Source: an uncultured Halobacteriales archaeon | Lineage (GTDB): Archaea; Halobacteriota; Halobacteria; Halobacteriales; Hikarchaeaceae | NCBI GenBank assembly: GCA_964554565.1 | Contig: CAZKPC010000001.1 | Coordinates: 16,956-80,955 of the forward strand | Length of the DNA stretch: 64,000 nt | Direction of reading: 5' to 3' | Shown here: in pieces, positions 35,237-61,464 of the stretch | How the letters are laid out: every line of letters starts with the position of its first letter | Position numbering within the stretch: the first letter of the stretch is position 1 | Program-made: the position numbers and the translations under genes | Notes under the pieces: model-generated | Databases searched by the model: none | What the model saw: only the letters and a program-made list of their open reading frames with translations | Told to the model about the DNA's origin: nothing

Positions 35237-37153
35237 ATGAGTGCCGTAGAGCAACAACTCGAATCCATCCACGAGCAGATCGTCAGCGAGCTACCGGGCG
35301 ATATCTCAGTCTCGGGCGTCAAATACGAGGGTCCGGAGCTGGTGGTCTACACCCGGGATCCCAAGAAGTTCGCCCAGAAGGGGGACCTCATCCGAAAGCT
35401 GGCCAGCAAGCTCCGGAAGCGCATCACCGTCCGGCCCGATCCGGATGTCCTATCGAGACCCGCCGACGCGGAGGCGAAGATCAGGGAGGTGTTGCCGGAG
35501 GAAGCCGGCGTCACCGACCTCGATTTCCACGAGGACACCGGCGAGGTCGTCATCGAGGCCGAGAAACCCGGTCTGGTGATCGGCCGGCACGGCTCCACCC
35601 TGCGGGAGATCACCCAGCAGGTCGGGTGGACCCCGGAAGTCGTCCGGACCCCACCCATCGAATCCGCCACGGTGTCGAACGTGCGGAACTTCCTGAAGCA
35701 GGAGCGCGAGGAGCGCCGCTCGATCCTCGAACGGGTCGGGCGCCAGATCCACCGGGAGGAGCTCAACGACGAGGACTGGGTGCGGATCACGACGCTGGGC
35801 TGCTGCCGCGAGGTCGGCCGGGCCTCCTACGTGCTCTCGACTCCCGAAACCCGGGTCCTGATCGACTGTGGTGACAAACCCGGGGCGGAGGACGAGGTCC
35901 CGTATCTCCAGGTCCCCGAAGCGCTCGGAGCCGGGGCGAACACGATCGATGCAGTGGTGTTGACCCACGCCCACCTCGACCACTCGGCGCTGATCCCGCT
36001 GCTGTACAAGTATGGCTACGACGGGCCGATCTATACCACGGAACCCACCCGTGACCTCATGGGATTGCTCACGCTGGACTACCTGGACGTGGCGGTAAAG
36101 GAGGGCCGCAACCCGCCCTACGAGTCCGAGATGGTCCGCGAGGCGATCAAACACACCATCCCGGTCGAGTACGGCGACGTCACAGACATCGCCCCGGACG
36201 TCAAGCTGACACTTCACAACGCGGGGCACATCCTCGGGTCGTCGATCGCGCACTTCCACATCGGCGAGGGCCTGTATAACGTCGCTTTCAGCGGGGACAT
36301 CCACTACGACGATACCCGCCTCTTCAACGGGGCCGTCAACGACTTCCCGCGGGTGGAGACCCTCGTCCTCGAGTCGACCTACGGCGGGCGCAACGACTAC
36401 CAGACCGACCAGGAGGACTCCGAGCGTAAGTTGGTTGAACTCATCAACGAGACCCATGACGAAGGCGGGAAGGTCTTGATCCCAGCCTTTGCGGTCGGGC
36501 GCTCCCAAGAGATGATGCTGGTCATCGAGGAGGCCATGCGGAACGAGAAGATCCCGGAGATGCCAGTGCACCTCGACGGCATGATGTGGGAGGCGACGGC
36601 GATCCATACCACGTACCCCGAGTACCTCCGGGACGACCTCCGGGACCGGATCTTCCACGAGGACGCGAACCCGTTCCTGGCCGAGCAGTTCAACCACATC
36701 GACGGCGGCGAGGATGAGCGGTTGGAAGTGGCTGACGCCGGGCCGAGCATCGTGCTCTCGACCTCCGGGATGATCACCGGCGGCCCGATCATGTCGTGGC
36801 TCAACCACCTCGGCGGCGATCCGGACAACACGCTGACGTTCGTCGGATACCAGGCCCAGGGGACGCTCGGGCGCCGCATCCAGAACGGCTGGGACGAGAT
36901 CCCGATCAACGACGACGGCCGATCGAAGACGCTGAACCTCGACCTCGATGTCGAGACCGTCGACGGCTTCTCCGGGCACGCCGACCGGCAGGGGCTCGAG
37001 AACTTCGTGAAGACCATGAACCCGCGGCCGGAGAAGGTGCTCTGCGTGCACGGCGACGAACGGTCCACTCAGGACCTCTCCTCGGCGCTCTACCACAAGT
37101 ACGACATGCGGACTTTCGCCCCGAAGAACCTCGAGACCTTCCGCTTCCTGTAA
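35237..37153 (+). CDS. fttA: aCPSF1/FttA beta-CASP ribonuclease (KH-KH-MBL-beta-CASP), transcription termination factor
   Basis: 638 aa with N-terminal KH domains, the metallo-beta-lactamase motif THAHLDHSA and a beta-CASP region. The antisense 692-aa ORF is an artefact. Confidence 0.95.
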   Translation: MSAVEQQLESIHEQIVSELPGDISVSGVKYEGPELVVYTRDPKKFAQKGDLIRKLASKLRKRITVRPDPDVLSRPADAEAKIREVLPEEAGVTDLDFHEDTGEVVIEAEKPGLVIGRHGSTLREITQQVGWTPEVVRTPPIESATVSNVRNFLKQEREERRSILERVGRQIHREELNDEDWVRITTLGCCREVGRASYVLSTPETRVLIDCGDKPGAEDEVPYLQVPEALGAGANTIDAVVLTHAHLDHSALIPLLYKYGYDGPIYTTEPTRDLMGLLTLDYLDVAVKEGRNPPYESEMVREAIKHTIPVEYGDVTDIAPDVKLTLHNAGHILGSSIAHFHIGEGLYNVAFSGDIHYDDTRLFNGAVNDFPRVETLVLESTYGGRNDYQTDQEDSERKLVELINETHDEGGKVLIPAFAVGRSQEMMLVIEEAMRNEKIPEMPVHLDGMMWEATAIHTTYPEYLRDDLRDRIFHEDANPFLAEQFNHIDGGEDERLEVADAGPSIVLSTSGMITGGPIMSWLNHLGGDPDNTLTFVGYQAQGTLGRRIQNGWDEIPINDDGRSKTLNLDLDVETVDGFSGHADRQGLENFVKTMNPRPEKVLCVHGDERSTQDLSSALYHKYDMRTFAPKNLETFRFL

Positions 37154-37190
37154 GCCCGATACGAGTCGGATTTGGGACGGAGTTTCGACA

Positions 37191-37934
37191 ATGCCTATCA
37201 CTCCTGAGGACCTTCCGCTGGTCATGGACACCAACCCCGACCGGCCGGAGGCTCTCTCACGCCGGTCGGTCCTCGCGGGCGTCGGCGCGCTGGCCGGGAC
37301 CGCCCTCGCCGGTTGTCTCGGGAACGGACAGTCGGGCGGCGAGGGGACCACCGGGGGCGGAACCCCGATCGCGGACCACCCGGCCGGAGCCGGGCTTGGC
37401 GAGCAGCCGCTGAAGGGCCCGGATCCGCTCGAATCAGCCGCGGCCATCGTCGCGTTCGAGGACCCGTCCTGTACGCGGTGTCGTGCGTTCGAGCGGGAGA
37501 CGGTCCCTCGGATCGAGCAGGAACTCATCGAGCCAGGCCAAGCTTCGCTGGTCTTCCGAGGCTATCCGGTCGTTTACGAGTGGGGTGGGCCCGCCACCCA
37601 TGCGCTGGAGGCGACGTTCGACCGTGATGCGAACGCGTTCTGGGCCTTGAAGGACCACTACTACGAAACCCAGCCGGACTTCGATACCGGGAACGTCCTG
37701 GAGTTGACCCAGGAGTTCCTCGCCACGGAAACGGATGTCGACGCCGGCGCGGTGATCGATGCCGTCGAAACGGGGGCAACCGACGATGCGGTGCAGAACG
37801 ATCTCGATGCCGGAATGAACGCGGGTGCGGGACGGACGACTCCGACCCTCTTCCTGTTCCGGGACGGCCAGTACCAGACGAAAACCGCCGGCAGCGTCAG
37901 CTTCTCGGTCGTGAAGAACGCTCTGGGGCTGTGA
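37191..37934 (+). CDS. Tat-exported lipoprotein with DsbA/thioredoxin-like domain
   Basis: Tat motif SRRSVLAG, lipobox LAGC, a Gly/Thr-rich linker and a thioredoxin-fold CxxC (FEDPSCTRCRAFE). Confidence 0.8.
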   Translation: MPITPEDLPLVMDTNPDRPEALSRRSVLAGVGALAGTALAGCLGNGQSGGEGTTGGGTPIADHPAGAGLGEQPLKGPDPLESAAAIVAFEDPSCTRCRAFERETVPRIEQELIEPGQASLVFRGYPVVYEWGGPATHALEATFDRDANAFWALKDHYYETQPDFDTGNVLELTQEFLATETDVDAGAVIDAVETGATDDAVQNDLDAGMNAGAGRTTPTLFLFRDGQYQTKTAGSVSFSVVKNALGL

Positions 37935-37941
37935 GCGCGAC

Positions 37942-38529
37942 ATGAACGTCCGCCTGCCCATTCGGCCCGCCGATTGGCGCTTGATGGGCCGGACCGCCCG
38001 GCTAGTGCTGGGCCTGCCAGCTTACGCGGTGTTCGCGCTGGTAGCCGCCCTCGTCGGGCTGACCGTGTTCGTCGTGAGCCAGAACCTCGCGCTCGTGGGC
38101 GACGTGGTCCTCGGGGGCGGGCTACCACTCGAGAACCGCCTCGCCGTGCTCCTGGGGCTCTATCCGTTCTTGGGGACATCGTTCAGCCTCGTCCAGGGCC
38201 TCGCGCTGCTGGTCATCGCCGCCCTCCTCGGGATCGACCTCGCGATGGTGGCCTACCACGTCCGCGAACACGGCCTGACGCTCGAATCCGGCGGCGGTAG
38301 CGCCGTCGGCGCGCTGCTCGGGACGCTCGGGGCCGGCTGTGCGGCCTGCGGGCCCGCGGTACTGGTCGGCCTGCTCTCGTTGTTCGGGGCGGCCGGGGCG
38401 CTGACGCTCCTGCCCTTCGAGGGTCTGGAGTTGACGGGCGTGGCCGCGATCGCGCTCCTGCTCTCGATCTACTGGATCGCCGAAGGGATGCGGGGTGGCA
38501 TGATCCGGGGCTGTCCGGTCGACCTCTGA
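37942..38529 (+). CDS. Polytopic membrane protein with an intramembrane CxxC (GAGCAACGP) and a C-terminal Cys, function unknown
   Basis: The ATG lies 7 nt after the DsbA-like stop. 4-5 hydrophobic helices and three Cys in total (CAAC plus RGCPVDL). No family recognised. Confidence 0.65.
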   Translation: MNVRLPIRPADWRLMGRTARLVLGLPAYAVFALVAALVGLTVFVVSQNLALVGDVVLGGGLPLENRLAVLLGLYPFLGTSFSLVQGLALLVIAALLGIDLAMVAYHVREHGLTLESGGGSAVGALLGTLGAGCAACGPAVLVGLLSLFGAAGALTLLPFEGLELTGVAAIALLLSIYWIAEGMRGGMIRGCPVDL

Positions 38530-38557: not shown

Positions 38558-39364
38558 TCACTCCGGCGTGTCGGCCGGATCGGTGACTTCGCCGGCGGCC
38601 TCGTCGATACCGACTCGATCACACAGCTCGTACAGCGGGCAGGCCTCCGGGCCCTCCAGGCAGGCCGGCTGGCGGGCGGAACAGACGTCGCGGCCGAACT
38701 GGATGCTGGCGGTATGGCCGAACCCGCACTTCTCCGGGGGCACGTCGCGTTCCAGGACGGCCCGGACGGTTTCGTGATCGGCGTCGGGGGGCGCGATGCC
38801 CATCCGACGGAAGATGCGATAGACGTGCGTGTCGACGGGGAACACGCCCGTCCGCCCACCTGAGAACAGGAGGACGCAGTCCGCGGTCTTCGGGCCGACC
38901 CCGTCCATGTCGAGCAGCGTTTCGCGAACGGTAGTCGGGTCACGATCGGTGACGAACTCGTCGAACGCATCGGCCCCGCCGTACTCCCCACGGACCCGTT
39001 CGGCCAACCGGATGAGGGTTCGAGCTTTCTGGTTGTAAAGCCCGGCGTGGCGGATCGTGTCCGCGAGGACGTCCGCGTCCGCGTCGGCAAGTGCGGCGGC
39101 GAGATCATCGCCGCCGTAACGGTCCATCAGGGCGTCGTGAGCGGGTTGGCTCGCCTTGTCGCTCGTGTTCTGGGAGAGGACCGTCCGAACGAGACACTCG
39201 AACGAGGCCTGGCCCCCATACGTTTTCCGCCAATAACGCTGGCCGAGCCGGTCCACGACCGCCTCCGCCGTGGTCTCGGCGTCCCCCGGCACGAACGGCT
39301 GCTCCGCCTCAGTACGCTCGGTGCCGCCGGCGATGTTCTCGCTCGGTTCTCCGTCGGTGGGCAT
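38558..39364 (-). CDS. nth: Endonuclease III (HhH-GPD DNA glycosylase/AP lyase)
   Basis: HhH motif LLDMDGVGPKTADCVLLF and a C-terminal 4-Cys iron-sulfur loop (CSARQPACLEGPEACPLYELC). Confidence 0.9.
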   Translation of the reverse strand: MPTDGEPSENIAGGTERTEAEQPFVPGDAETTAEAVVDRLGQRYWRKTYGGQASFECLVRTVLSQNTSDKASQPAHDALMDRYGGDDLAAALADADADVLADTIRHAGLYNQKARTLIRLAERVRGEYGGADAFDEFVTDRDPTTVRETLLDMDGVGPKTADCVLLFSGGRTGVFPVDTHVYRIFRRMGIAPPDADHETVRAVLERDVPPEKCGFGHTASIQFGRDVCSARQPACLEGPEACPLYELCDRVGIDEAAGEVTDPADTPE

Positions 39365-61014: not shown

Positions 61015-61464
61015 GTGAGCTTAGCGATCGACCCATCGGCCCTCGACGGCGACGACATCGGCGAGAAGCGGGCGACCCTCGAAATGGACCATGCCGCCGC
61101 TGTGGAACACGTCCGGGAGGCCTTCACGGCGGCGGGTTTTGGCGTGGCAACCGAGTTCTCACCCAGCGAGCTGCTGAACGAGAAGATCGATGCCGGGCGG
61201 GAGCCCTATCACGTCCTCGGCGCCTGCAACCCGCGGATGGCCGACCAGGCGTTGGATGCCTCCGAACGGCGCATCGGCGGACTGTTCCCGTGTAACGTGA
61301 TCGTCTGGCAGGAGGCCCCCGGGCGCCAACACGTCTATCACGTGTCGATCATGAAGATCGCGCGGCTCGTGGGAATGGCGCCGGACGACGAACGCTGGGC
61401 CGAGATCGTCGGCGAAACGGGTGACCTGGTTGAGGCGGCCTGGGCCAACCTCGACGCGGCGTGA
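61015..61464 (+). CDS. DUF302 domain protein
   Basis: GFGVATEF..YHVLGACNPRMA..IGGLFPCNVIVWQ matches my recollection of DUF302. The start is uncertain (GTG 61015, or TTG/GTG at 60988-60991). Confidence 0.75.
   Translation: MSLAIDPSALDGDDIGEKRATLEMDHAAAVEHVREAFTAAGFGVATEFSPSELLNEKIDAGREPYHVLGACNPRMADQALDASERRIGGLFPCNVIVWQEAPGRQHVYHVSIMKIARLVGMAPDDERWAEIVGETGDLVEAAWANLDAA

What the first reader, a model, noticed from the sequence alone, without database searches (positions are those of the whole stretch)
37191..38529. Tat-lipoprotein thioredoxin (DsbA-like) paired with a CxxC membrane protein: candidate haloarchaeal disulfide-relay system
Gene 1 encodes a twin-arginine signal (SRRSVLAG), a lipobox (LAGC), a flexible Gly/Thr linker and a thioredoxin fold with CTRC, making it an extracytoplasmic, membrane-anchored thiol-disulfide oxidoreductase. 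Seven nucleotides downstream, gene 2 encodes a 195-aa polytopic membrane protein I cannot place in DsbB, VKOR or CcdA/DsbD by motif. It carries a CxxC inside a Gly/Ala-rich helix (LGTLGAGCAACGPAVLVG) and a third Cys at the extreme C-terminus (RGCPVDL). The arrangement mirrors the DsbA-DsbB and DsbA-VKOR logic of an exported oxidoreductase with a membrane redox partner. As far as I recall, the recycling partner for extracellular disulfide chemistry in Halobacteria has not been defined. The pair could alternatively be a reductive (CcdA-like) or a metal-handling (Hg/Cu, MerT-like) system.
Basis: inference. Interest (0 to 1): 0.6.

Follow-up and report, generated by a model that had tools for sequence, protein, structure and literature searches.

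The report
Thioredoxin lipoprotein with novel tri-cysteine membrane partner
Two overlapping-to-adjacent genes encode an exported DsbA-like thiol enzyme and a previously unnamed four-helix membrane protein with three conserved cysteines; the pair is conserved together in salt-loving archaea, DPANN archaea and CPR bacteria, probably passes thiol/disulfide equivalents (or copper) across the membrane, and would be a new class of membrane partner for DsbA-type proteins.

Summary
ORF1 (37191-37934) is a Tat-signal, lipobox-bearing DsbA/BdbD-like thioredoxin with CTRC. ORF2 (37942-38529), 7 nt downstream, is a 195-aa membrane protein with a CAAC motif and a C-terminal Cys.

ORF2 matches no Pfam, NCBIfam or PDB family. 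It shows no homology to DsbB (0.2%) or CcdA (0.8%) and no PDB fold match, yet its family has 942 clusters at 50% identity.

The pairing is near-universal: the thioredoxin gene lies directly upstream in 76/80 haloarchaeal loci and 77/89 distant (CPR/DPANN) loci, while flanking genes vary. All three cysteines are conserved and tend to be lost together.

- Charge distribution and an AlphaFold model (pLDDT 85) indicate four helices with both termini inside. The CxxC is then mid-membrane and the last Cys cytoplasmic, which is unlike DsbB or VKOR.
- In the distant branch the pair sits in copper operons (35/41 long loci), sometimes beside a separate DsbA-DsbB module.

I favour a trans-membrane thiol relay that works like CcdA/ScsB-ScsC (0.4). 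A Cu(I) relay (0.25) and a DsbB-like oxidase (0.2) are less likely. No experiment has tested the function.

The parts
37191..37934 (+). TRX: exported, membrane-tethered DsbA/BdbD-like thiol-disulfide oxidoreductase (247 aa)
   Evidence: ORF. Pfam Thioredoxin_4 E 4.3e-12. PDB BdbD 3eu3 E 1.2e-8, plus DsbA 5kbc and Wolbachia DsbA-like 3f4t. Orthologue lies directly upstream of MEM in 76/80 and 77/89 loci.
37257..37316 (+). Tat-type signal (SRRSVLAG, RR = residues 24-25) running to the lipobox LAGC (Cys42)
   Evidence: Read directly from the sequence. TIGR01409 scores 14.0 bits, below its 16.7 cutoff. 79/81 haloarchaeal orthologues have RR and 70/81 have RR followed by a lipobox. H. volcanii 'DsbA' Hvo_1245 is an experimentally shown Tat lipoprotein (PMC2945643, PMC13631571); its orthology to this gene was not tested.
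37317..37367 (+). Gly/Thr/Ser-rich flexible linker after the lipobox Cys (LGNGQSGGEGTTGGGTP)
   Evidence: Read directly from the sequence.
37470..37481 (+). TRX active-site CxxC (CTRC, Cys94/Cys97)
   Evidence: Sequence. A CxxC is present in 83 of the 84 best-matching partner ORFs; CPRC, CPTC and CSRC dominate in haloarchaea and CPFC occurs in 66/77 distant partners.
37842..37844 (+). Pro218 of the TTPT loop, the candidate cis-proline of the thioredoxin fold
   Evidence: Aligned with the 'TPT' of BdbD in the HMMER alignment. T-P or G-T-P is conserved in haloarchaeal and distant partners. The cis conformation is inferred, not shown.
37935..37941 (+). 7-nt intergenic spacer (operon-type coupling)
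   Evidence: In other loci the commonest spacing is a -4 overlap (26 loci), then -1 (8 loci), with most others between 0 and +7.
37942..38529 (+). MEM: 195-aa four-helix membrane protein, member of an unnamed tri-cysteine family
   Evidence: No Pfam, NCBIfam or PDB sequence hit. 649+ homologues and 942 clusters at 50% identity. AF2 model with pLDDT 84.9. No fold match in the PDB.
38017..38082 (+). TM1 (residues 26-47), preceded by an Arg-rich amphipathic N-terminal helix (residues 9-23)
   Evidence: AF2 helices, hydropathy, and N-terminal net charge of +4.5 (haloarchaeal) and +2.6 (distant).
38188..38271 (+). TM2 (residues 83-110) with conserved G97-x-D/N99 inside the membrane, followed by the haloarchaea-specific YHVREH (105-110) on the cytoplasmic loop
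   Evidence: G97 90%, N/D99 81%. Y105, H106, R108 and H110 are invariant in the 30 haloarchaeal sequences but not in distant members.
38293..38385 (+). TM3 (residues 118-148), Gly-rich, carrying the family signature GxGCxxCG[SPT]
   Evidence: AF2 gives one continuous helix in the deep model but a break at 137 in the shallow model. pLDDT is only 61-78 here. Conservation: G130 93%, G132 96%, C133 98%, C136 99%, G137 98%.
38338..38349 (+). MEM CxxC (CAAC, Cys133/Cys136), predicted mid-membrane
38410..38430 (+). LPFEGLE motif (residues 157-163) on the predicted outer loop and start of TM4; P158, G161 and E163 are near-invariant
   Evidence: P158 100/101, G161 100/101, E163 92/101. The loop is K/R-poor, so it is predicted to lie outside.
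38425..38505 (+). TM4 (residues 162-188) with conserved Ser175
   Evidence: S175 91%.
38512..38514 (+). Cys191 in the conserved C-terminal tail (DGMRGGxIxGCPVD), predicted cytoplasmic
   Evidence: Invariant in haloarchaea and 87/101 family-wide. 272/304 members have both the CxxC and a C-terminal Cys, and these are lost together (Fisher p 1.4e-5). The tail's K/R density of 0.17 per residue matches the other inside segments.

Best explanation
The two genes form one operon-encoded envelope thiol module. TRX is exported by Tat and lipid-anchored in haloarchaea, or anchored by an N-terminal helix in CPR bacteria. It displays a DsbA-fold CxxC just outside the membrane. MEM is its dedicated membrane partner, with four helices and both termini in the cytoplasm. 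A CxxC lies in a Gly-rich stretch in the middle of helix 3, next to a buried Asp/Asn (helix 2) and Glu/Ser (helix 4). A single conserved Cys sits on a short cytoplasmic C-terminal tail.

I propose that the three MEM cysteines form a relay across the membrane. A cytoplasmic reductant (thioredoxin or a low-molecular-weight thiol) acts on the tail Cys191. Cys191 exchanges with the buried Cys133-Cys136 pair, and that pair in turn keeps the TRX CxxC reduced. MEM would therefore work like CcdA/DsbD/ScsB and TRX like ScsC/ResA/TlpA, although MEM is not homologous to those membrane proteins. In CPR/DPANN lineages the module is part of copper-homeostasis operons. There it would protect or repair exported cysteines under copper stress, or hold Cu(I) on the reduced TRX. 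In haloarchaea it has become a stand-alone housekeeping module.

Shown: gene pairing, cysteine conservation, lack of homology to known partners, and copper context in the distant branch. Inferred: topology, direction of electron flow, the identity of the cytoplasmic donor, and the transfer of the copper link to haloarchaea.
For: Pairing: TRX is directly upstream on the same strand in 76/80 haloarchaeal loci, while the window's flanking genes recur in only 3, and in 77/89 distant loci, 6 of the rest being cut by contig ends. Spacing is operon-like, most often -4 or -1.

Cysteines: C133, C136 and C191 are invariant in haloarchaea and 98%, 99% and 87% conserved family-wide. 233/304 members have exactly three Cys, and 6 of the 8 members lacking the CxxC also lack the tail Cys (p 1.4e-5).

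Topology: AF2 gives four long helices. In the 79 non-halophilic members the K/R density is 0.19, 0.19 and 0.17 per residue for the N-terminus, loop 2 and C-tail, against 0.06 and 0.02 for loops 1 and 3. A Cys therefore faces the cytoplasm, which only makes sense for a trans-membrane relay.

Parallel module: architectures reading TRX1>MEM>TRX2>DsbB-SurA show MEM coexisting with a real DsbB. TRX1 (CPFC) and TRX2 (CEAC/CPAC) are distinct subfamilies, as with DsbC-DsbD beside DsbA-DsbB.

Copper link: CopA-type ATPase in 35/89 loci, plus cupredoxins, multicopper oxidase, DUF305, DUF302 and a CopY-like repressor. At least one copper gene occurs in 35/41 loci longer than 8 kb, in at least 5 architectures.

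Precedent: the Cu-induced ScsB/ScsC pair consists of Cu(I)-binding thiol oxidoreductases, with a DsbA-like ScsC kept reduced by a membrane protein (PMC10907172, PMC8900818, PMC3322552). Three-cysteine relays that end in a flexible C-terminal tail reduced by thioredoxin are established chemistry (E. coli MsrA, S. aureus ArsC; my own knowledge).
Against: The direction of electron flow is not shown by any result here. TRX is closest to oxidases (BdbD, DsbA), and its CP[FRT]C-type dipeptide is DsbA-like rather than the CxPC of ResA or TlpA. A classical cytoplasmic thioredoxin gene is not a recurrent neighbour: a full one occurs in 1/80 haloarchaeal and 0/89 distant loci. One distant locus (L089) already encodes a CcdA-type DsbD_TM protein in the same cluster. 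The AF2 confidence around the CxxC is only 61-78, and the shallow-alignment model broke helix 3 at residue 137, so a helical-hairpin (5-TM, C-terminus outside) topology is not excluded structurally. Haloarchaeal loci show no copper genes, and the copper evidence comes from relatives at 25-45% identity. Conserved buried polar residues (N/D99, E163, S175) are more typical of ion-binding sites than of electron relays.
Confidence: 0.4

Rival explanations
1. Thiophilic-metal relay (MerP-MerT or CTR1 logic). TRX binds Cu(I) on its CxxC outside the cell. MEM passes the ion through a membrane site formed by Cys133/Cys136 with Asp/Asn99, Glu163 and Ser175, and on to the cytoplasmic tail Cys191 (with His106/His110/Met183 in haloarchaea), or in the reverse direction to metallate exported cupredoxins and multicopper oxidases. 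No net redox chemistry is needed.
For: The distant-branch context is dominated by copper genes. These often lie on the same strand and immediately adjacent, for example MCO>TRX>MEM>cupredoxin>DUF3105, CopA>CopY-like>M56>TRX>MEM>YtkA, and DUF305>TRX>MEM. MEM has conserved intramembrane polar residues and a glycine-zipper-like helix 3. The GxGCAACG signature echoes the GMTCAAC loop of HMA domains, although the match is not significant (E 1.2). The layout of an outside CxxC protein, a membrane Cys pair and a cytoplasmic C-terminal Cys parallels MerP/MerT/MerF (my own knowledge). DsbA-like ScsC binds Cu(I) with subpicomolar affinity (PMC8900818).
Against: No member matches MerT, MerC, MerE, CopD or any transporter family; the best is MerE at E 0.58 in one member. 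The universal partner is a DsbA-fold protein with the catalytic CxxC and T-P loop conserved, not a typical metallochaperone fold. Haloarchaeal loci have no copper neighbours. Importing Cu(I) next to a Cu(I) exporter has no obvious benefit, and export without an energy source is hard to explain.
Confidence: 0.25
2. Oxidative recycling. MEM is a non-homologous functional analogue of DsbB/VKOR that reoxidises the DsbA-like TRX and passes the electrons to menaquinone or another acceptor.
For: TRX is most similar to the oxidases BdbD and DsbA and has the DsbA-type helical-insert family profile. The haloarchaeal active-site context C-x-x-C-x-x-F-E resembles E. coli DsbA CPHCYQFE (and my own knowledge). 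The tight two-gene operon mirrors bdbDC and dsbA-vkor. No DsbB or VKOR is reported for Halobacteria in the literature I could search. Orphan DsbAs without a known partner are a recognised problem (PMC12453122). If helix 3 were really a hairpin, as hinted by the break at G137-P138 in the shallow model, the CxxC would sit at the outer surface and Cys191 outside as a shuttle Cys.
Against: DsbB and VKOR each need two extracytoplasmic Cys pairs, whereas MEM has three Cys and none in an outer loop. The hairpin topology would put the K/R-free loop 3 inside and the K/R-rich tail outside, contradicting the positive-inside pattern at both places. A real DsbB with its own DsbA-like TRX2 sits next to the pair in 8 loci. 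The family is abundant in CPR/DPANN organisms, which generally lack quinone biosynthesis (my own knowledge). No similarity to DsbB or VKOR was found by Pfam, hhalign (0.2%) or Foldseek.
Confidence: 0.2
3. The pairing reflects something other than thiol or metal transfer between the two proteins. For example, MEM could be a membrane receptor or assembly factor for TRX, with structural or Zn-binding cysteines, or MEM could be a substrate of TRX.
For: No experiment links the cysteines of the two proteins. AF2 confidence in the Cys region is modest. A few members lack all three Cys yet persist.
Against: The cysteines and the surrounding GxGCxxCG signature are the best-conserved features of the family across three very distant lineages. 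The partner CxxC is conserved in parallel. The anchor type of TRX differs between lineages (lipoprotein or N-terminal helix), so MEM is not an anchor-specific factor.
Confidence: 0.15

Closest known systems
ScsC-ScsB (suppressor of copper sensitivity) and, more generally, CcdA/DsbD with ResA/TlpA/DsbC
   Same: A DsbA-fold or thioredoxin-fold CxxC protein outside the membrane is serviced by a cysteine-bearing integral membrane protein that connects it to the cytoplasm. The genes are linked to copper stress and sit in copper-regulated operons. The module coexists with a separate DsbA-DsbB oxidative pathway (PMC10907172, PMC3322552).
   Different: MEM has no sequence, profile or fold similarity to DsbD_TM proteins. 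It has 4 helices rather than 6-8. It has a CxxC in one helix plus a tail Cys, instead of one Cys in each of two pseudo-symmetric helices. It has no periplasmic alpha or gamma domains. The direction of electron flow is untested.
DsbA-DsbB (E. coli) / BdbD-BdbC (B. subtilis) and DsbA-VKOR (Mycobacterium, cyanobacteria)
   Same: A two-gene arrangement of an exported DsbA-like protein with a small four-helix membrane protein carrying a CxxC. TRX is closest in sequence to BdbD.
   Different: MEM is not homologous (Pfam negative; hhalign 0.2%; Foldseek negative). It lacks the second extracytoplasmic Cys pair. Its CxxC is predicted mid-membrane and its third Cys cytoplasmic. It occurs alongside genuine DsbB.
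MerP-MerT/MerF mercury uptake
   Same: The same three-station layout: a periplasmic CxxC protein, a Cys pair inside a transmembrane helix, and cysteine(s) on a cytoplasmic tail or loop. Both are encoded in metal-resistance operons (my own knowledge).
   Different: There is no sequence relationship; the best hit is MerE at E 0.58 in one member. The outside partner has a DsbA fold, not an HMA fold. The context is copper, not mer genes. The pair stands alone in haloarchaea.
ScsA (Salmonella)
   Same: A small membrane protein of unknown function with a CxxC (CLAC) predicted to be buried in the membrane, encoded with DsbA-like proteins in a copper-induced operon (PMC10907172).
   Different: ScsA is predicted to have two helices and a lipobox-like N-terminus and is linked to peroxide tolerance rather than copper tolerance. 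I had no ScsA sequence, so no direct comparison was run. MEM has no NCBIfam hit.
Haloferax volcanii 'DsbA' Hvo_1245
   Same: A haloarchaeal DsbA-like protein shown experimentally to be a Tat-exported lipoprotein (PMC2945643, PMC13631571). This is the same predicted biogenesis as ORF1.
   Different: Orthology to ORF1 and the presence of a MEM gene next to Hvo_1245 were not tested here. No function or partner has been reported for it in the papers found.

Membership tests
DsbA/BdbD-like thioredoxin-fold oxidoreductases (for ORF1) | Sequence match to the DsbA-type thioredoxin family with helical insertion | tested here: met
   Pfam Thioredoxin_4 at 47 bits against a cutoff of 23.2. PDB BdbD E 1.2e-8, DsbA 5kbc 2.9e-5.
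DsbA/BdbD-like thioredoxin-fold oxidoreductases (for ORF1) | Active-site CxxC and a conserved (cis-)Pro loop | tested here: met
   CTRC at residues 94-97 and TTPT at 216-219. Conserved across orthologues. The cis conformation was not tested.
DsbA/BdbD-like thioredoxin-fold oxidoreductases (for ORF1) | Acts as a dithiol oxidase in vivo | not testable with these tools
   Needs redox-state trapping or complementation.
Tat-exported archaeal lipoprotein (for ORF1) | Twin-arginine motif followed by a hydrophobic stretch and a lipobox Cys | tested here: met
   SRRSVLAG...LAGC. 70/81 orthologues have RR followed by a lipobox. The TIGR01409 model is just below cutoff, 14.0 against 16.7 bits.
DsbB (PF02600) | Sequence or profile similarity to DsbB | tested here: not met
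   No Pfam hit at E<=1 for ORF2, 30 haloarchaeal relatives or 10 distant relatives. hhalign against DsbB homologues from the same loci gives probability 0.2%.
DsbB (PF02600) | Two extracytoplasmic cysteine pairs (a CxxC at the outer end of a helix plus a pair in the second outer loop) | tested here: not met
   Only three conserved Cys. None lies in loop 1 or loop 3, and one is on the K/R-rich C-tail.
DsbB (PF02600) | Quinone-dependent reoxidation of a DsbA | not testable with these tools
   Biochemical assay required.
VKOR (PF07884) | Sequence or fold similarity to VKOR; four conserved Cys plus Ser/Thr | tested here: not met
CcdA/DsbD/ScsB (PF02683, PF13386) | Sequence or profile similarity to DsbD_TM | tested here: not met
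   No Pfam hit. hhalign against the DsbD_TM protein of L089 gives probability 0.8%, with only a 21-column echo around 'G.GC'.
CcdA/DsbD/ScsB (PF02683, PF13386) | Six or more helices with one catalytic Cys in each of two inverted repeats | tested here: not met
   The AF2 model has four helices, with both membrane Cys in one helix.
CcdA/DsbD/ScsB (PF02683, PF13386) | Transfers reducing equivalents from the cytoplasm to an exported thioredoxin-fold protein | not testable with these tools
   This is the function I propose by analogy. It is supported only by topology and context.
MerT/MerF/MerC/MerE mercury transporters | Sequence similarity and a mer operon context | tested here: not met
   The best hit is MerE at E 0.58 in 1 of 40 scanned members. 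No mer genes occur in 169 loci.
New MEM family (as defined here) | About 170-200 aa, four helices, GxGCxxCG[SPT] in helix 3, LPxxGxE before helix 4, a C-terminal Cys, and a gene directly downstream of a Thioredoxin_4 gene | tested here: met
   ORF2 has all of these features.

The most novel reading that the evidence does not exclude
MEM founds a new class of trans-membrane thiol-disulfide transporters. It is unrelated in sequence and fold to DsbB, VKOR and DsbD/CcdA, and uses a mid-membrane CxxC plus a swinging cytoplasmic tail cysteine. It would be the missing dedicated redox partner, in either direction, of DsbA-like proteins in Halobacteria, DPANN archaea and CPR bacteria, and in the latter it would couple envelope thiol chemistry to copper homeostasis.
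Probability: 0.55. Interest if true: 0.8.

Novelty: new variant of a known kind. Interest (0 to 1): 0.7.

Why it matters
Only a few membrane enzyme families are known to connect exported thioredoxin-fold proteins to the cell's redox pools: DsbB and VKOR in the oxidative direction, and DsbD/CcdA/ScsB in the reductive direction. Many organisms have "orphan" DsbA-like proteins with no identified partner (for example the clostridial cases in PMC12453122). I found no paper defining a partner for the haloarchaeal DsbA-like lipoprotein.

A fourth, non-homologous partner family would fill that gap for three large and poorly understood lineages. The family has 942 clusters at 50% identity and is near-universally paired with a DsbA-like gene. 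It would also offer a minimal 4-helix, 3-cysteine model for moving thiol equivalents or Cu(I) across a membrane, and would link copper homeostasis in CPR bacteria to envelope thiol chemistry. The question is directly testable, because Haloferax volcanii genetics and E. coli dsb complementation assays already exist.

Tried and rejected
- **Pfam and NCBIfam scans.** I scanned ORF2, 30 haloarchaeal relatives, 10 distant relatives and a CPR member. Only noise appeared (DUF1422, MerE, DUF2157 at E>0.005).
- **PDB sequence searches.** A single-sequence search and a 101-sequence profile search found nothing. The one curiosity was a non-significant echo of the HMA loop GMTCAAC.
- **Domain fusions.** The unusually long family hits P0170, P0195 and P0182 are not real fusions; they gave CitMHS and MurJ fragments or nothing.
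- **Organism names.** Cluster look-ups for distant members returned almost none. Taxonomy was instead inferred from an ArgRS neighbour and one Nanoarchaeia annotation.
- **Pattern extraction.** It failed on the divergent alignment A4 and worked on the tighter A5.
- **A third conserved gene in haloarchaea.** None exists. The most frequent neighbour (32 loci) is an unrelated SRAP-type peptidase.
- **Copper genes in haloarchaeal loci.** They are absent except for weak CopA and MCO hits in L065.
- **A dedicated cytoplasmic thioredoxin neighbour.** This was prompted by HVO_1244 in PMC9426492. A full thioredoxin occurs in only 1/80 loci, so the idea was rejected as a general feature.
- **The 5-TM hairpin topology that would rescue the DsbB analogy.** It is disfavoured by the K/R distribution but not structurally excluded.
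- **DsbB or VKOR in Halobacteria.** The literature searches found nothing either way.
Full report
**1. What is in the sequence**

Both ORFs are present on the + strand exactly as described.

ORF1 (37191-37934, 247 aa) begins with a twin-arginine motif, SRRSVLAG. This is followed by a hydrophobic stretch ending in the lipobox LAGC (Cys42), a Gly/Thr-rich linker, and a thioredoxin domain with CTRC (Cys94/Cys97). It matches Pfam Thioredoxin_4 at E 4.3e-12. Its best solved relatives are the B. subtilis oxidase BdbD (3eu3, E 1.2e-8) and DsbA-type proteins. The NCBIfam Tat-signal model scores just under its cutoff. However, 79 of 81 haloarchaeal orthologues carry RR and 70 have RR followed by a lipobox. 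A Haloferax volcanii protein called DsbA (Hvo_1245) has been shown experimentally to be a Tat-exported lipoprotein (PMC2945643, PMC13631571). I did not test whether it is the orthologue of ORF1.

ORF2 starts 7 nt after the ORF1 stop codon (37942-38529, 195 aa). It contains GAGCAACGP (Cys133/Cys136) and ends RGCPVDL (Cys191). The window's other neighbours are unrelated to thiol or metal chemistry: FttA/aCPSF1, an HhH-GPD glycosylase, a flavin reductase, DUF371, DUF7121, DUF373 and a NUDIX protein.

**2. ORF2 belongs to a large, unnamed family**

ORF2 has no Pfam or NCBIfam match even at E<=1. The same holds for 30 haloarchaeal relatives, 10 distant relatives and a CPR member. RefSeq annotates plasmid-borne copies as "hypothetical protein" next to a "thioredoxin domain-containing protein".

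The family is nonetheless large. The word-indexed search found 649 or more homologues. The exhaustive search found 942 representative clusters at 50% identity, of which 214 had E<=1e-10.

An alignment of 101 members spanning 24-89% identity shows a sharply conserved core:
- G97-x-(N/D)99 in helix 2.
- G130-x-G132-C133-x-x-C136-G137-(S/P/T) in helix 3.
- L157-P158-x-x-G161-x-E163 before helix 4.
- S175 in helix 4.
- A Cys about 10 residues after helix 4.

Of 304 full-length members, 272 have both the CxxC and the C-terminal Cys, and 233 have exactly three cysteines. Of the eight that have lost the CxxC, six have also lost the tail Cys (Fisher p 1.4e-5). The three cysteines therefore behave as one functional unit.

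**3. The pairing with the thioredoxin gene is the strongest result**

In 80 loci from different GTDB haloarchaeal species, a relative of ORF1 lies immediately upstream on the same strand in 76. The other four, all Haladaptatus, have it within 4 kb, and in the annotated plasmid copy a transposase lies between the two genes. The window's flanking genes recur in only three of these loci, so the pair moves as a cassette.

The commonest spacing is a 4-nt overlap (26 loci), followed by -1 (8 loci), with most others between 0 and +7. This is typical of translational coupling.

The same arrangement holds for relatives at only 25-45% identity. In 89 metagenomic loci with about 43% GC, a Thioredoxin_4/DSBA gene is directly upstream on the same strand in 77, and six of the remainder are cut by a contig end.

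A housekeeping neighbour in one of these lineages has named relatives only in Parcubacteria-type CPR bacteria (Nomurabacteria, Kaiserbacteria, Pacebacteria, Shapirobacteria). One family member is annotated as Candidatus Nanoarchaeia. The module is therefore not haloarchaea-specific. It spans Halobacteria, DPANN archaea and CPR bacteria. The way TRX is tethered also differs: a Tat lipoprotein in haloarchaea and an N-terminal membrane helix in CPR.

**4. MEM is not DsbB, VKOR, CcdA or MerT**

- The Pfam models for these families do not match any of the 41 members scanned.
- Profile-profile comparison gives 0.2% probability against DsbB homologues taken from the same metagenomic loci. It gives 0.8% against a DsbD_TM protein, with only a 21-column echo around a Gly-rich "G.GC" segment.
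- A family profile finds no PDB chain.
- An AlphaFold model built on the 101-sequence alignment (pLDDT 84.9, pTM 0.78) has no Foldseek match in the PDB; the best E is 2.8 and TM-scores are below 0.4.

**5. Anatomy and topology**

The model has an N-terminal amphipathic helix (residues 9-23) and four long helices (26-47, 83-110, 118-148, 162-188). The CxxC lies in the middle of the third helix. Confidence there is only 61-78, and a shallower model broke that helix at Gly137-Pro138.

To decide the orientation I counted charges in the 79 non-halophilic members.

| Segment | K/R per residue | Inferred side |
|---|---|---|
| N-terminus | 0.19 | inside |
| Loop 1 | 0.06 | outside |
| Loop 2 | 0.19 | inside |
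| Loop 3 | 0.02 | outside |
| C-terminal tail | 0.17 | inside |

This fits a four-helix protein with both termini in the cytoplasm. It contradicts, at two places, the alternative five-segment topology that would put the tail outside.

On this reading Cys191 faces the cytoplasm. The CxxC is buried near Asp/Asn99, Glu163 and Ser175. The conserved LPFxGxE loop faces outward toward TRX. These assignments are inferred, not shown.

**6. Genomic context gives a second, unexpected lead**

In haloarchaea no third gene is conserved with the pair and copper genes are absent. In the distant branch the recurrent neighbours are copper genes:
- A CopA-type P-type ATPase with two HMA domains (35/89 loci).
- Two cupredoxin families (13 and 12 loci).
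- A multicopper oxidase (8 loci).
- DUF302 (9), DUF305 (6) and DUF3105 (14).
- A CopY-type repressor and YtkA (locus L086).

At least one copper gene is present in 53/89 loci and in 35/41 loci longer than 8 kb. These occur in at least five different gene orders, often on the same strand and directly adjacent. If a random 12.5-kb stretch held a CopA gene with probability 0.025, 35 of 89 would have p of about 1e-32. That figure overstates significance, because many loci are related. The diversity of architectures is the better argument.

Eight loci read TRX1>MEM>TRX2>DsbB-SurA_N. This means a genuine DsbB (Pfam DsbB, CxxC-QR motif), with its own DsbA-like protein, sits next to the pair. TRX1 (CPFC in 66/77) and TRX2 (CEAC/CPAC) are different subfamilies, and TRX1 is the one closer to the haloarchaeal TRX (median 82 against 59 bits).

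**7. Interpretation**

- A conserved cytoplasmic cysteine, a buried CxxC and no cysteine in any outer loop.
- Coexistence with a real DsbA-DsbB module.
- Abundance in lineages that generally lack quinones (my own knowledge).

These features fit a relay that crosses the membrane. I favour a reductive thiol relay (confidence 0.4). In it, a cytoplasmic reductant acts on Cys191, which exchanges with Cys133-Cys136, which in turn reduces the TRX CxxC. MEM would work like CcdA/DsbD/ScsB, and TRX like ScsC. ScsC is a DsbA-fold protein that is kept reduced, binds Cu(I) and is induced by copper (PMC10907172, PMC8900818, PMC3322552). Three-cysteine relays that end in a flexible tail reduced by thioredoxin are known chemistry in MsrA and ArsC (my own knowledge).

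The main rival (0.25) is a Cu(I) relay with MerP-MerT logic. The copper context, the buried polar residues and the Gly-rich helix support it. The DsbA-type catalytic features of the universal partner, and the absence of copper genes in haloarchaeal loci, weaken it. The two readings are not exclusive, since ScsB and ScsC are themselves Cu(I)-binding oxidoreductases.

The oxidative reading keeps 0.2. TRX is closest to oxidases and has a DsbA-like active-site context. The helix 3 region is the least confident part of the model. I also could not check whether haloarchaeal genomes lack DsbB or VKOR.

A non-relay role keeps 0.15.

**8. Limits**

No result here shows the direction of electron flow, metal binding, or physical contact between the two proteins. 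The copper evidence comes from relatives at 25-45% identity and may not transfer to the haloarchaeal branch. That branch has its own invariant cytoplasmic motifs: YHxREH in loop 2 and DGMRGG before the tail Cys. A dedicated cytoplasmic thioredoxin is not a conserved neighbour. In H. volcanii, a thioredoxin gene (HVO_1244) next to DsbA Hvo_1245 is bound by the oxidative-stress regulator OxsR (PMC9426492).

**9. Novelty and verdict**

The logic of an exported thioredoxin-fold protein with a cysteine-bearing membrane partner is known. The membrane partner is not. It has no name in Pfam (2025), NCBIfam (June 2026) or RefSeq annotation. It has no solved or detectable structural relative, and I found no paper describing it.

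I classify the pair as a new variant of a known kind of system and score its interest at 0.7. It offers a concrete, testable candidate for the missing partner of DsbA-like proteins in three large lineages, along with an unexpected link to copper homeostasis.

Noticed in passing
L117, L123, L130, L131, L148, L152, L155, L086 (e.g. L123:2462-3721): CPR loci encode a DsbB domain fused to, or followed by, a SurA_N-like chaperone domain (419-431 aa; split into two genes in L131 and L155). It sits directly after its own DsbA-like gene (CEAC active site). A DsbB-chaperone fusion in organisms thought to lack quinones is unusual in itself.
   Followed up: partly
L081:7159-7683, L169:4629-5042, L154:4135-4758: Three uncharacterised protein families recur beside the pair in copper operons. 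One is a His-rich protein of about 174 aa (HWH...MHTHE), present in 13 loci and often immediately downstream of MEM. One is a Met/His/Cys-rich membrane protein of about 137 aa, present in 11 loci. One is a 207-aa protein present in 20 loci. None has a Pfam or NCBIfam match.
   Followed up: partly
L170 (NZ_CP085303.1, Haladaptatus pallidirubidus plasmid), also L033, L034, L043, L045: In Haladaptatus the pair is split: TRX lies 1-3.5 kb away on the opposite strand. In the annotated copy a transposase lies between the two genes and a second thioredoxin-domain gene sits beside TRX. RefSeq also calls a shortened MEM ORF (408 nt).
   Followed up: partly
L061:6662-6895 and L136 (MEM>TRX>MEM): L061 has a second, partial MEM copy (residues 118-195, 64% identity) 1 kb downstream of the pair. 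L136 has two MEM genes flanking one TRX gene.
   Followed up: no
P0128, P0155, P0156, P0141, P0171, P0161 (family members): A few family members have lost the cysteines; P0128 has C133S and C191S together while keeping C136. They may be inactive paralogues, or they may reveal a cysteine-independent role.
   Followed up: partly
window 38254-38271 and 38482-38523: Haloarchaea-specific invariant motifs occur on the predicted cytoplasmic face of MEM: YHxREH in loop 2 and DGMRGGxIxGCP in the tail. His, Met and Cys together could form a metal site. These motifs are absent from CPR members.
   Followed up: no
window 35237-37153 (+): The upstream gene is FttA/aCPSF1, the KH plus beta-CASP archaeal transcription termination factor. 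It ends 37 nt before ORF1, leaving very little room for a separate promoter.
   Followed up: partly
window 38558-39364 (-): A convergent HhH-GPD (endonuclease III-like) glycosylase gene with a C-terminal Cys cluster ends 28 nt after ORF2. This neighbour recurs only in the three closest relatives (L001, L002, L067).
   Followed up: partly
window 61069-61308: A DUF302-like coding stretch (tblastn E 2e-10 to the DUF302 protein of a CPR copper operon) lies 23 kb from the pair. It is probably unrelated.
   Followed up: no
window 35450-37528 (-) and other long antisense ORFs: Very long ORFs lie on the strand opposite to real genes, for example a 692-aa ORF antisense to FttA and ORF1. They are artefacts of high GC content, not genes.
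   Followed up: no
H. volcanii HVO_1244/HVO_1245 (literature): A thioredoxin gene (HVO_1244) adjacent to DsbA Hvo_1245 has an OxsR ChIP-seq peak under hypochlorite stress (PMC9426492). This hints that the haloarchaeal module may belong to an oxidative-stress regulon.
   Followed up: partly
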